A stretch of DNA of 64,000 nt, taken from NCBI RefSeq assembly GCF_003991155.1, contig NZ_CP031293.1. One strand, given 5' to 3'. Below, piece by piece: positions 60,001 through 63,000 of this stretch. Positions within the stretch are counted from its first letter, which is position 1. Each line of letters starts with the position of its first letter. The position numbers were made by a program. Origin of the DNA: Escherichia coli. Its GTDB lineage: Bacteria > Pseudomonadota > Gammaproteobacteria > Enterobacterales > Enterobacteriaceae.

Positions 60001-63000
60001 ATTTACCGTGGTATCCGTGGCCGTATCACCGGCGTTCAGCGTGAATGAACTGCCTTTTTCCAGCATCAGGGCATCCGCCTGACCGCCTCCGATACTGAAT
60101 GCCTTTCCGTCGCTCCGGGTACCACTGACAGCGGCACCGGAATCGGCCAGCAGTACACCGCCATTTCCCATGGATACGGTGGTGGCGGTACCACCGTTGC
60201 GGACATCCAGCGTTCCGCCATCATCCACGCGGGTATTAGTGGCTGTGTGTCCGGTCAGCACATCCAGGCGTCCGCCATTTTCCAGTACGACATTATCAGC
60301 TTTACCCTCCACAACCGAGAATGCTCCAAGGCGGTTTATGCCGGTAACGGTTGCAGCCGTACTGGTAACCAGTGCACCGCCCGTGTTCTGGGTGACTGCA
60401 GTGGCTTCCCCGCCGGCATGTACCCTCAGTTCACCGTTCTGATTAACGGTGGTGTTACCGACAGCACCACCTGCCTTAACAACCTGCCAGCCCCCCTCGT
60501 TAATTACCGTGTTCAGCGCAAGTCCGTCCTTGTGCACATACTGGTAACCGCCATTCAGTGTGGTATTCAGGGCCCTTCCGTGTACCGACTGGTCACCACC
60601 TGCGTAAATGAGAGTGTCACGGGCTATCCCGGAAAATAAGATAATCTGCCGTCCATTTTTGTTGATGGTGGTGGATTCTGCTGTTCCCTGGACCTTCTGA
60701 CCCGTGTACGAGTTGTCAGAATCCGGGCCGCCTTCTGCGCCGGTGTTGATGATGGTTCCTGTTGCCAGCCCGCCACTTTTAACGCTCTGGTAACCGTCGC
60801 GGTTGATAATTGTACCGGTGGCAACCCCGCCCTCATGAACCCACTGCTCGCCTCTGTTATTCAGCGTGGTGTTCACCGCCAGCCCGTTCAGGCTCTGTCC
60901 CCCGCCGTCACGAATAACCGTATCACTGGCTGTTCCCCCCTCCAGCACGACCTGACGACCATTTGTGGTAACAGTGGTGTTTCCGGCTATCCCGCCATTC
61001 TGTATCCATTGCCCACCGGTGTTTTCTTCACTGTCCGGCCCCAGTTCCAGCCCGGTACTGATGGTCATTCCGTTGGCCGTACCGAGGACAATCTGGTTGT
61101 CATGATTTTCCAGTGTTCCGCCGTTCACGGTTTCACCTGCCTGTACAATACTGTCAGCAGCCAGGGCCGGGACTGACGTGACAGCAGCAAGAGACAGAGC
61201 AACCGCCACACCGGCGCCTTTTCCCCGTGAGCGGGCCAGTTCGGAGGCCACCACCAGGGTGCCCGTAATGTGATTCCATACCAGCCTGTAGCTGGTGTTC
61301 AGATGTCGTTTCATCAGCTTTTCCTTACAGAGGGTGAATAAAAAAGCCGGTACCCACAAATGTGGATACCGGCAGGTACAAAACAGCATGGTCAGATAAA
61401 GTGGTTTTTCCCGGACATAAATGCTTCCCCTCTCTCATCCGCCAGAGAAGTATCAGTCCGTTGTGTGCAATTCCGTTCTGCATGATGAAGAGATTCAGCT
61501 GCCTTTTCGCAGGCCATTAACCACTATAAACGATCGATATCAGCGATCGATACCTGTTTTATCGATCGTTTTATTCTATTGATAGCAGGGCGGTCACGCA
61601 AGAGAAACAGGAGGGTATGAGGGGGTTGTGTCATGTTTTCAGTTTGTTAATGCAATATAATCAGGCATTTCCCCTGGCAGAGTGTTCAGAAGAAAATCCA
61701 GTTCCATACAGCGCGGGCAACAGAGACCACCGAGTCACGGACGGCACGCAGAACCGTGCGTGCAACAGAGGCAATACAGACGCTCTCCGCCGTGTCAAAT
61801 ATCCGGTCCACCGCACCGGTAAACTGTTCACGGGCCTGAGACCGGACAGATTCCGTGCGCAGCTCGTCCTGCAGTCGGGTCATCAGGGGACTGGCGGCAT
61901 GGTCGGGAAGCGCTGTCATGAGCGCACTGACCAGCGTATCCAGTTCCCAGCCGGTGCGGGCCGATACGGCCACAACCGGATGTACGGGCCGGAACAGACG
62001 GAATACCGCCTCCGTTTTTTCGCGAATATTCTGTGCCTGTGCAGGAGAAGGCTGAATACCGGCCATATCCCATTCATGGCAGGGCTCCGTTTTGTCGGCC
62101 TGCGTCACCACAAACAGTACCCGCTGATGTCCCCGGTGCAGGATGTGTCGCCAGAAATACTCATCCACAGACAGGGCACGGTCATCGGCTTTAATCAGCC
62201 ACAGTACCAGGTCCAGTTCAGGCAGAATGTCACGGTACAGGGCCTCATACTCTGCATCCCTGTCCCGGCTCTCGCCCACCCCGGGCAGGTCAGTGATAAC
62301 CATGCTGTGACCGTGGCCACTCAGACGGAAGTGCCGTACTTCCCGGGTGCCGGCGTGAACATCACTGACCGGGGTGACCTCCCCCTGAAACAGTGCATTA
62401 CAGAGTGAGGATTTACCGGCCCCGCTTTTACCCATAATGCCAATCACGGGTTCGTGACGGGTGAGTTTGCGCAGATGTTCCAGGATGTGACGGGAAAGCG
62501 AGTAAGGCAGGGAGGAGAGCGGTTTTTCAATTGCCTCAATGGCATCAGACGGATTCATACATGTATTCCCGGTGAAAAAAGACAAAACCCCGCGCACCGG
62601 AAAGGTGGCGGGGGATTCACGGAGATAATATCTGTCTGAAATTGTTTTGAATCGATGGGATTGTTGCGTATTAACATGAAGGAGATCAGGACTTATCCGT
62701 TACTGGGTGATCTCCTTCCATGAAAATACGCCGTTATTGTTAAACAGCAGGCTGATTTCTCCGTAAAGGGGAAAATATTTATCGGCTGCATGATTATCAG
62801 GTGTGTCTGTGTTTACTGCTGTGAGTATTTTTCAGTGTATTGTGGGGGAGATGTCAGTGGGAGATATTAAATTTACGTTTATAATTATCTTACTTCTTCT
62901 GTGTGTTTTTTATAAGAGTGCACACGTAATGATATCTGTTGATACCATGTGGTTAAGTGTTTCCCTTCCTGGTCATGCGTAATGATTAAATGCTTTTGTG

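What the first reader, a model, noticed from the sequence alone, without database searches (positions are those of the whole stretch)
61532..61567. Intact three-GATC Dam/OxyR phase-variation switch upstream of antigen 43
Three GATC sites spaced 13 and 19 bp apart lie in the flu leader about 220-250 bp upstream of the start codon. This matches the known epigenetic switch in which Dam methylation and OxyR binding compete to set the ON or OFF phase. Its intactness suggests this island copy of Ag43 is phase-variable.
Basis: partly seen in the sequence, partly recalled or inferred. Interest (0 to 1): 0.45.

Follow-up and report, generated by a model that had tools for sequence, protein, structure and literature searches.

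The report
Known antigen 43 on/off methylation switch
This is an intact copy of the textbook E. coli switch in which DNA methylation (Dam) and the repressor OxyR compete at three GATC sites to turn the antigen 43 adhesin gene on or off; it is correctly identified but already well known.

Summary
GATC sites lie at 61532, 61545 and 61564, spaced 13 and 19 bp, 218-253 bp upstream of the ATG (61314, minus strand) of an intact 1040-aa Ag43 autotransporter.

Anchored on an identical -10 hexamer (TAGAAT), the three sites have the same 19/13 spacing and the same position as in K-12 flu. There, GATC-I's G is the first base of the annotated isrC leader RNA.

Two OxyR half-sites scoring 8/10 overlap all three GATCs (61565-61579 and 61533-61547). 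They are 32 bp apart, the spacing a paper calls canonical for reduced OxyR. This is the only such pair in the 64 kb (0.005 expected), and it scores the same as the oxyS/oxyR control site.

In 116 metagenome copies, 109 keep all three GATCs. Variation falls on the non-consensus positions of one half-site and on the promoter spacer. Some natural alleles have lost a GATC, so "intact" is a meaningful statement.

The region is also the 5' end of an IS102/IsrC leader (Rfam 74 bits) that ends in a conserved terminator.

A 2010 paper already states that both agn43 allele groups carry three similarly spaced GATCs. Phase variation of this copy remains an inference. Interest is low.

The parts
61564..61567 (-). 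GATC-I, the promoter-proximal site. Its G (61567 on the minus strand) is the inferred transcription start (+1).
   Evidence: In K-12 the homologous G is the first base of the annotated isrC ncRNA (L001 2318). The Rfam IS102 match starts 2 nt upstream.
61545..61548 (-). GATC-II, 19 bp downstream of GATC-I. It overlaps the left element (ATCG) of OxyR half-site C.
61532..61535 (-). GATC-III, 13 bp downstream of GATC-II. It overlaps the right element (CGAT) of OxyR half-site C.
61565..61579 (.). OxyR half-site A, gene strand ATAGAATAAAACGAT. It matches the ATAGnTnnnAnCTAT consensus at 8 of 10 positions and overlaps the -10 hexamer, +1 and GATC-I.
   Evidence: score 8. It is invariant at consensus positions in 116 metagenome copies, apart from one copy with a G13 change.
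61533..61547 (.). OxyR half-site C, gene strand ATCGCTGATATCGAT, 8 of 10 matches. Its centre is 32 bp from the centre of site A, and it overlaps GATC-II and GATC-III.
   Evidence: the only pair of >=8/10 sites at 32-bp spacing in the window (0.005 expected per shuffle). PMC4856963 calls this spacing canonical for reduced OxyR.
61573..61578 (-). -10 hexamer TAGAAT of the agn43 promoter.
   Evidence: Identical in K-12 and in all 116 metagenome copies. Caveat: the 116 copies were aligned on this motif.
61596..61601 (-). -35 hexamer TTGCGT (3 of 6 matches to consensus), separated from the -10 by a 17-nt spacer (61579-61595).
   Evidence: The TCTTG core is invariant across alleles. The generic promoter scan did not call this site because its -35 is below the 4/6 threshold.
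61315..61567 (-). 253-nt agn43 leader, corresponding to the IsrC/IS102 RNA when transcription stops at the leader terminator.
   Evidence: Rfam RF00124 match at 61333-61569, 74.4 bits against a gathering score of 46. RNA fold z = -2.3.
61340..61373 (-). Intrinsic terminator in the leader: a 12-pair hairpin at 61373-61346 followed by a T-run at 61345-61340.
   Evidence: Conserved between the K-12-type and window-type leaders.
58192..61314 (-). Intact agn43/flu coding sequence (1040 aa), the gene the switch controls.
   Evidence: Pfam ESPR, AIDA x4, AC_1 and Autotransporter domains. Annotated agn43 in the collinear genome Combat2C1.
61539..61543 (-). Hypervariable pentamer between GATC-II and GATC-III (CTGAT in this window). 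It covers non-consensus positions of half-site C plus the mostly conserved T38.
   Evidence: 15 variants in 116 copies; the window's version occurs in 4 of them. It is among the 3 most variable 5-nt windows in 780 bp.

Best explanation
This is the cis-acting epigenetic ON/OFF switch of an antigen 43 (agn43/flu) gene, carried in a CP4-44-like module next to the kps capsule region of an ExPEC-like E. coli.

Layout. A sigma-70 promoter (-35 TTGCGT, 17-nt spacer, -10 TAGAAT) starts transcription at or next to the G of GATC-I. Two OxyR half-sites span about -12 to +35: A, ATAGAATAAAACGAT, and C, ATCGCTGATATCGAT, with centres 32 bp apart. Three of their four recognition elements are CGAT or ATCG, each embedded in a GATC.

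OFF state. A reduced OxyR tetramer sits on the unmethylated sites. It occludes the -10/+1 region and shields the three GATCs from Dam.

ON state. All three GATCs are methylated, OxyR cannot bind, and RNA polymerase transcribes a 253-nt leader. Part of this transcription stops at the leader terminator, giving an IsrC-like RNA. The rest reads through into agn43.

Switching. After replication the sites are hemimethylated, and Dam and OxyR compete for them again.

Shown here: the sequence architecture, its homology to K-12, its conservation pattern, the OxyR-consensus matches, the leader RNA family, and the intact gene. Taken from the K-12 literature: OxyR repression, blocking of OxyR by methylation, and heritability. 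Not shown: that this copy actually switches.
For: - GATC positions and spacing.
- Ungapped correspondence with K-12 flu and with Cah and other Ag43 alleles, all with 19/13 spacing directly after TAGAAT.
- The K-12 isrC annotation starts at the G of GATC-I.
- OxyR half-sites score 8/10 and 8/10 at 32-bp spacing, unique in the 64 kb, 0.005 expected. K-12 agn43 shows the same architecture, and the oxyS/oxyR control scores 8+8 at 22 bp. PMC4856963 describes 32 bp as canonical for reduced OxyR.
- 109 of 116 independent metagenome copies keep all three GATCs.
- At half-site positions outside the alignment anchor, the summed minor-allele count is 7 over the 15 consensus positions and 67 over the 9 'n' positions.
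- Rfam IS102 match and terminator.
- Intact Ag43.
- dam and oxyR each in 5425 of 5426 E. coli genomes.
- Mechanism from the literature: PMC2909390, PMC4872104, PMC13337833. Three similarly spaced GATCs in both allele groups: PMC2808357. Leader antitermination: PMC5389530.
Against: - There are no methylation or expression data for this copy.
- The generic sigma-70 scan did not call the promoter, because the -35 matches only 3 of 6.
- The sequence between GATC-I and GATC-II differs strongly from K-12. The third potential half-site (idx 20-34) scores 6/10 here against 7/10 in K-12.
- The pentamer between GATC-II and GATC-III is a minority variant, found in 4 of 116 copies, so switching rates could differ from K-12.
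- The OxyR half-site is palindromic and coincides with the arms and loop of a 5' leader hairpin. The conservation pattern alone therefore cannot separate a DNA-binding constraint from an RNA-structure constraint.
- The primary papers giving the K-12 transcription start and the OxyR footprint (Wallecha 2002, Waldron 2002, Haagmans 2000) were not held in the library. The -16 to +42 footprint and the start at the G of GATC-I are from my memory of those papers.
Confidence: 0.9

Rival explanations
1. The switch architecture is present, but this allele is functionally skewed or locked, mostly ON or mostly OFF. The cause would be allele-specific changes: the CTGAT pentamer inside half-site C, the divergent GATC-I to GATC-II spacer, and a weaker -35.
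For: The window's pentamer is a minority variant, 4 of 116 copies. The region between GATC-I and GATC-II differs from K-12 at most positions. In the related opvAB switch, single-base changes in OxyR half-sites lock the system (PMC4856963).
Against: All the differences fall on non-consensus positions of the OxyR motif. Both half-sites keep 8/10, as in K-12 and as in the oxyS control. The window-type regulatory region is the commonest form in E. coli, found in about 3,450 of 5,426 genomes.
Confidence: 0.07
2. The conserved CGATCG palindromes are kept mainly for an RNA-level role. They would form a 5' hairpin of the leader/IsrC RNA that affects stability or antitermination, with the Dam/OxyR role secondary in this allele.
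For: The Rfam IS102 consensus structure contains a hairpin formed by the GATC-II and GATC-III blocks. The MFE fold pairs the GATC-I and GATC-III blocks. The variable pentamer lies in that hairpin's loop.
Against: There is no real covariation: pair 31/49 shows 1 double change against 9 single breaks. A42 and T43 are unpaired in the Rfam structure yet invariant. Half-site A, including ATAG upstream of +1, is not transcribed yet is invariant. The DNA-level mechanism is experimentally established for K-12.
Confidence: 0.02
3. The three GATCs are a chance cluster with no regulatory meaning.
For: Clusters of three GATCs within 36 bp occur 7 times in the window.
Against: The exact spacing is unique (0.016 expected). 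It lies at the homologous position of the K-12 switch. It is conserved in 109 of 116 copies and embedded in the only OxyR half-site pair in the window.
Confidence: 0.01

Closest known systems
E. coli K-12 agn43/flu Dam-OxyR phase-variation switch (CP4-44 prophage; isrC-flu)
   Same: - Identical -10 hexamer TAGAAT.
- GATC-I at the transcription start, and the same 19/13 spacing.
- Half-sites A and C each score 8/10, 32 bp apart.
- The leader ends in the same terminator and Shine-Dalgarno sequence.
- Same gene order: GTPase (yeeP-like), switch, agn43, yeeR-like gene and onwards to the cbeA/cbtA toxin-antitoxin module.
   Different: - Most bases between GATC-I and GATC-II differ from K-12.
- The pentamer between GATC-II and GATC-III is CTGAT here and TTTAT in K-12.
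- The -35 is TTGCGT here and TTGTCC in K-12.
- The leader is 253 nt here and 222 nt in K-12, and its central part cannot be aligned.
- The upstream GTPase gene is intact here and a pseudogene (yeeP) in K-12.
- The module sits next to the kps capsule locus rather than in CP4-44.
Cah (calcium-binding Ag43 homologue) regulatory region of E. coli O157:H7
   Same: Same window-type leader and the same switch block. It differs only in the pentamer and a few promoter-spacer bases.
   Different: In O157 the GATC-II and GATC-III blocks form a perfect 13-bp tandem repeat. One cah allele (OkiPb01715) has lost one unit and so one GATC. In the window the two units differ at 3 of 13 positions.
Salmonella gtr (P22) and opvAB OxyR/Dam phase-variation switches
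   Same: OxyR half-sites with embedded GATCs, with Dam and OxyR mutually exclusive. [quoted passage not shown]
   Different: Those switches have 3-4 half-sites upstream of the promoter, with alternative occupancy, and OxyR is also needed for activation. Here a single pair of half-sites covers -10/+1 and acts only as a repressor site. The third candidate site scores only 6/10.
pap-family Lrp/Dam switch
   Same: A heritable methylation pattern set by competition between Dam and a DNA-binding regulator.
   Different: The pap switch uses Lrp and PapI and two GATCs 102 bp apart. The window has no such pair: only three GATCs lie within 61251-61760.

Membership tests
agn43/flu Dam-OxyR epigenetic switch | Three GATC sites, 19 and 13 bp apart in gene orientation, starting at the transcription start directly downstream of the -10 hexamer | tested here: met
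   Same register as K-12, whose isrC annotation starts at the G of GATC-I.
agn43/flu Dam-OxyR epigenetic switch | An OxyR binding site that overlaps the GATC sites and the -10/+1 region | tested here: met
   Half-sites 61565-61579 and 61533-61547 each score 8/10, 32 bp apart. They are the only such pair in the window, with 0.005 expected. K-12 agn43 shows the same pattern, and the oxyS/oxyR control scores 8+8. Actual binding was not tested.
agn43/flu Dam-OxyR epigenetic switch | A sigma-70 promoter driving the gene | tested here: inconclusive
   The -10 TAGAAT is identical to K-12, and the -35 TTG is invariant with a 17-nt spacer. The generic scan made no call because the -35 matches only 3 of 6.
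agn43/flu Dam-OxyR epigenetic switch | A leader of more than 200 nt (IsrC/IS102 RNA) with an intrinsic terminator before the start codon | tested here: met
   Rfam RF00124, 74.4 bits against a gathering score of 46, full model length. Terminator at 61373-61340.
agn43/flu Dam-OxyR epigenetic switch | An intact downstream Ag43-family self-associating autotransporter gene | tested here: met
   1040-aa ORF with ESPR, AIDA, AC_1 and Autotransporter domains. Annotated agn43 in the collinear genome.
agn43/flu Dam-OxyR epigenetic switch | The host encodes Dam and OxyR | tested here: met
   Neither gene is in the window. The window is 95-99.6% identical to an E. coli chromosome, and dam and oxyR are each present in 5425 of 5426 complete E. 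coli genomes. This is a species-level inference.
agn43/flu Dam-OxyR epigenetic switch | Heritable, reversible ON/OFF expression, with the GATCs methylated in ON cells and unmethylated in OFF cells | not testable with these tools
   Needs methylation-sensitive sequencing or restriction analysis, and reporter assays.
gtr/opvAB-type OxyR-Dam switch | Three or four OxyR half-sites upstream of the promoter, giving alternative occupancy (an activating and a repressing configuration) | tested here: not met
   Only two sites score >=8/10. One overlapping register (61537-61551) scores 7/10, and the candidate site B scores 6/10. The sites overlap -10/+1 rather than lying upstream of the promoter.
pap-type Lrp-Dam switch | Two GATC sites about 102 bp apart within Lrp sites | tested here: not met
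   Only the three clustered GATCs occur in 61251-61760.

The most novel reading that the evidence does not exclude
The switch may be a naturally tunable element. Within an otherwise nearly invariant ~60-bp block, variation is concentrated in two places. One is the five bases between GATC-II and GATC-III, with 15 variants in 116 copies. These are mostly non-consensus positions of OxyR half-site C. The other is the -35/-10 spacer. Different agn43 alleles, including this minority CTGAT allele, could therefore have different heritable ON/OFF switching rates or ON-state expression levels, set by sequence that touches neither the GATCs nor the OxyR contact bases. An alternative cause would be locally raised mutation next to GATCs that stay unmethylated in OFF cells.
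Probability: 0.2. Interest if true: 0.4.

Novelty: already known. Interest (0 to 1): 0.15.

Why it matters
The result confirms that this capsule-adjacent copy of the Ag43 adhesin in an ExPEC-like E. coli has everything needed for stochastic ON/OFF expression. That matters in practice for anyone measuring aggregation, biofilm formation or persistence with such a strain, because cultures will be mixed ON/OFF populations (PMC3764049). It adds nothing conceptually new: the mechanism is textbook, and its presence in both agn43 allele groups is published. The only mildly new by-product is the population-level picture. About 6% of environmental copies have lost one GATC, and variation is focused on non-contact positions of the OxyR site and on the promoter spacer.

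Tried and rejected
- The default MAFFT pairwise alignment with K-12 put a gap inside the switch and made the GATC blocks look shifted. An ungapped alignment anchored on TAGAAT shows identical spacing, so the gapped alignment was discarded.
- OxyR motif at the 22-bp spacing (four adjacent major grooves): no pair in the window reaches a summed score of 15 or more out of 20. The 32-bp spacing fits instead.
- Two genome-contig scans (species representatives) with the leader-terminator 43-mer and 31-mer returned nothing. The distribution across species could therefore not be assessed. The same 31-mer gave at least 120 metagenome loci, so I treat the null as uninformative.
- The primary papers were not held: Wallecha 2002, Kaminska 2010, Wallecha 2014, Henderson & Owen 1999, and Casadesus & Low 2006.
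- Methylome papers mentioning Ag43 contain no site-level data for island alleles.
- RNA or DNA hairpin covariation between the GATC blocks is not supported.
- Leader-peptide attenuation: a 52-aa ORF crosses the terminator, but it has no Shine-Dalgarno sequence, and its frame and peptide are not conserved between allele families. I did not adopt this idea.
- The other GATC clusters in the window (3050-3092, 7522-7543, 19300-19473, 48475-48507) map inside coding sequences of the collinear genome. I did not pursue them as switches.
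Full report
**Observation**

Reading the window and listing all GATCs confirms three GATC sites at 61532-61535, 61545-61548 and 61564-61567. They are spaced 13 and 19 bp on the + strand. The gene they precede is on the minus strand. On that strand the sequence reads ...AATAGAATAAAACGATCGATAAAACAGGTATCGATCGCTGATATCGATCGTTTATAG.... About 220 nt downstream come a hairpin with a T-run, a Shine-Dalgarno AAGGA, and an ATG at 61314.

Three GATCs within 36 bp is not unusual in this window. There are 7 such clusters against about 1 expected, and the other six map inside coding sequences of the collinear genome. The exact 13/19 arrangement is unique, with 0.016 expected per shuffle.

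**What the gene and neighbourhood are**

- The ORF 61314-58192 encodes 1040 aa with ESPR, AIDA repeats, an autochaperone domain and an autotransporter beta-domain. It is an intact Ag43.
- Upstream is an intact YeeP-like GTPase gene at 62558-61686.
- The window is collinear, at 95-99.6% identity, with the chromosome of urinary E. coli strain Combat2C1. That genome annotates the region as lptFG, the glc operon, sslE, the gsp type II secretion genes, the kps capsule genes and an IS110 remnant. A CP4-44-like module follows: GTPase, agn43, a frameshifted yeeR-like gene, IrmA, antirestriction and RadC-like genes, and a YeeU/CbtA pair.
- There is no tRNA gene in the window.

**Comparison with K-12**

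In MG1655 the order is yeeP (pseudogene), isrC ncRNA (2071317-2071511), then flu (ATG at 2071539).

The default MAFFT alignment put a gap inside the switch. Anchoring on the shared AATAGAATAAAACGATC instead shows an ungapped correspondence. K-12 reads AATAGAATAAAACGATCAATATCTATTTTATCGATCGTTTATATCGATCGATAAGC. It has the same 19/13 spacing, and GATC-I's G is the first base of the annotated isrC.

The same register holds in O157:H7 cah, Nissle 1917 and four other alleles.

The Rfam family IS102/IsrC matches 61333-61569 on the minus strand over its full length, at 74.4 bits against a gathering score of 46. Its consensus begins ACGAUCgAUA... and ends in the terminator, which the terminator scan also finds at 61373-61346 plus a T-run.

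The three GATCs therefore occupy +1 to +36 of a 253-nt leader. [quoted passage not shown]

From my memory of Wallecha et al. 2002, which the library does not hold: transcription starts at the G of the upstream GATC, and OxyR(C199S) protects -16 to +42. The K-12 isrC annotation and the 5' end of the Rfam model are consistent with that start.

**The OxyR test**

I scored the 15-nt half-site consensus ATAGnTnnnAnCTAT, which has 10 specified positions, as used in PMC2909390 and PMC4856963.

- Across all 64 kb, 20 positions reach 8/10, which is about chance (18), and none reach 9/10.
- Only one pair of sites scoring >=8/10 lies 32 bp apart: 61565-61579 (ATAGAATAAAACGAT) and 61533-61547 (ATCGCTGATATCGAT). 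The expectation is 0.005 per shuffle.
- PMC4856963 describes half-site centres 32 bp apart as canonical for reduced OxyR.
- K-12 agn43 gives the same 8+8 pair at 32 bp.
- The classical oxyS/oxyR site, used as a positive control, gives 8+8 at 22 bp.

Of the four recognition elements, the first is a perfect ATAG overlapping the -10 hexamer. The other three are CGAT, ATCG and CGAT, each embedded in a GATC. In each half-site the mismatch at the third or thirteenth position is the one forced by the GATC. All three methylation targets thus sit on OxyR contact elements, and the site covers -10 and +1. This fits repression by occlusion and mutual exclusion with Dam.

**Population evidence**

A metagenome scan with a 31-mer from the leader terminator does not select on the switch itself.

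- All 116 carry ATAGAA at the expected place.
- 109 of 116 have all three GATCs at 19/13.
- Seven copies have lost one GATC by a point change. In one of them GATC-III has become TATC, which raises half-site C to 9/10.
- Among complete genomes, UPEC clone D i2 has GATC-I changed to GATT. One cah allele has lost a 13-bp unit, and with it one GATC.

"Intact" is therefore a real distinction.

Among distinct sequences, the summed minor-allele count is 7 over the 15 consensus positions of the two half-sites outside the alignment anchor. It is 67 over the 9 'n' positions. Within 81 distinct window-type haplotypes of a 780-bp region, the three most variable 5-nt windows are two in the -35/-10 spacer (61592-61581) and the pentamer 61543-61539 between GATC-II and GATC-III. 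That pentamer has 15 variants, and the window's CTGAT occurs in 4 of 116 copies.

Two caveats apply. The sequences are related by descent. The half-site is also a palindrome that coincides with the arms and loop of a predicted 5' leader hairpin. Covariation in that hairpin is essentially absent, with 1 double change against 9 single breaks. Half-site A includes untranscribed bases and is invariant, so the DNA-level reading is the better one.

**Trans factors**

dam and oxyR are not in the window. Each is present in 5425 of 5426 complete E. coli genomes.

**Mechanism (best explanation, confidence about 0.9)**

- OFF: reduced OxyR is bound to unmethylated half-sites A and C. It blocks RNA polymerase at -10/+1 and protects the three GATCs from Dam.
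- ON: the three GATCs are methylated, OxyR is excluded, and transcription starts at about 61567. Part of it terminates at 61373-61340, giving an IsrC-like RNA, and part reads through into agn43.
- Switching: after replication, Dam and OxyR compete again on hemimethylated DNA (PMC2909390, PMC4872104, PMC13337833).

The sequence architecture, homology and conservation are shown here. The binding, the methylation states and the heritability are inferred from K-12 work.

**Rivals**

- A skewed or locked allele (about 0.07).
- A mainly RNA-level role for the palindromes (about 0.02).
- A chance cluster (about 0.01).

**Comparison with known systems and novelty**

This is a member of the agn43/flu Dam-OxyR switch family. 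Four of the six sequence-level defining features tested here are met outright. Host dam and oxyR are met only at species level. The generic promoter scan made no call, so the promoter feature is inconclusive. Only the phenotype itself is untestable with these tools.

It is not a gtr/opvAB-type switch, because only two sites reach 8/10 and they overlap the promoter rather than lying upstream of it. It is not a pap-type switch, because there is no GATC pair 102 bp apart.

The window-type regulatory region is the common form, covering at least 80% of the query in about 3,450 of 5,426 complete genomes. Sequences 100% identical to it are annotated upstream of agn43 in RefSeq. PMC2808357, citing the 2008 Annual Review, already says both allelic groups have three GATCs with similar spacing and presumably phase-vary.

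The finding is therefore correct, well read by the first stage, and already known. Interest is about 0.15.

The most novel reading the data leave open is that the hypervariable non-contact positions tune switching rates between alleles. I give this a probability of about 0.2, and it would be of modest interest if true.

Noticed in passing
window 61539-61543 and 61581-61592 (minus-strand gene orientation): The pentamer between GATC-II and GATC-III has 15 variants in 116 metagenome copies. With the -35/-10 spacer, it makes up the three most variable 5-nt windows of a 780-bp region, while the flanking switch elements are almost invariant.
   Followed up: partly
L004 (clone D i2), L007 (OkiPb01715 cah), and metagenome loci L016, L024, L054, L086, L108, L125: Natural alleles with only two GATCs exist. 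They arose by point changes (for example GATC-I to GATT, or GATC-III to TATC, which improves the OxyR match to 9/10) or by loss of one 13-bp unit. In O157 cah the GATC-II and GATC-III blocks are a perfect 13-bp tandem repeat, TATCGATCGTTTA x2. This suggests slippage as the deletion route, and duplication as the origin of the third site.
   Followed up: partly
window 61325-61483 (minus strand): A 52-aa ATG-initiated ORF in the leader runs through the terminator hairpin and stops at the TAA inside the agn43 Shine-Dalgarno region. Most alleles have some ORF crossing the terminator, but its frame and peptide are not conserved between allele families, and it has no Shine-Dalgarno sequence.
   Followed up: partly
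window 61315-61567 compared with L001 2318-2539: There are two leader families: K-12-type (222 nt) and window-type (253 nt). They share only the first ~50 nt (the switch) and the last ~75 nt (terminator and Shine-Dalgarno). The central part cannot be aligned.
   Followed up: no
window 55554-58077 (minus strand): The yeeR-like gene just downstream of agn43 is split into two overlapping ORFs (56770-58077 and 55554-56876) with no Pfam match. The collinear genome annotates it as a frameshifted pseudogene.
   Followed up: no
window 3050-3095, 7522-7546, 19300-19476, 48475-48510: These are the other dense GATC clusters, including four GATCs in 46 bp at 3050-3095 and eight in 177 bp at 19300-19476. 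By collinearity with Combat2C1 they lie inside coding sequences (acyl carrier protein region, glcC, sslE, kpsF), so they are probably not switches.
   Followed up: partly
window 61686-62558 (minus strand): The GTPase gene upstream of the switch is intact here (290 aa, MMR_HSR1 domain). Its K-12 counterpart yeeP is a pseudogene.
   Followed up: no
window 1-22000 compared with 22000-64000: Identity to strain Combat2C1 is 95.0% over window 1-21959 (lptFG, glc, part of sslE), 98.5% over 22026-49356, and 99.6% over the agn43 module. This suggests a mosaic or recombinant relationship between the two strains.
   Followed up: no
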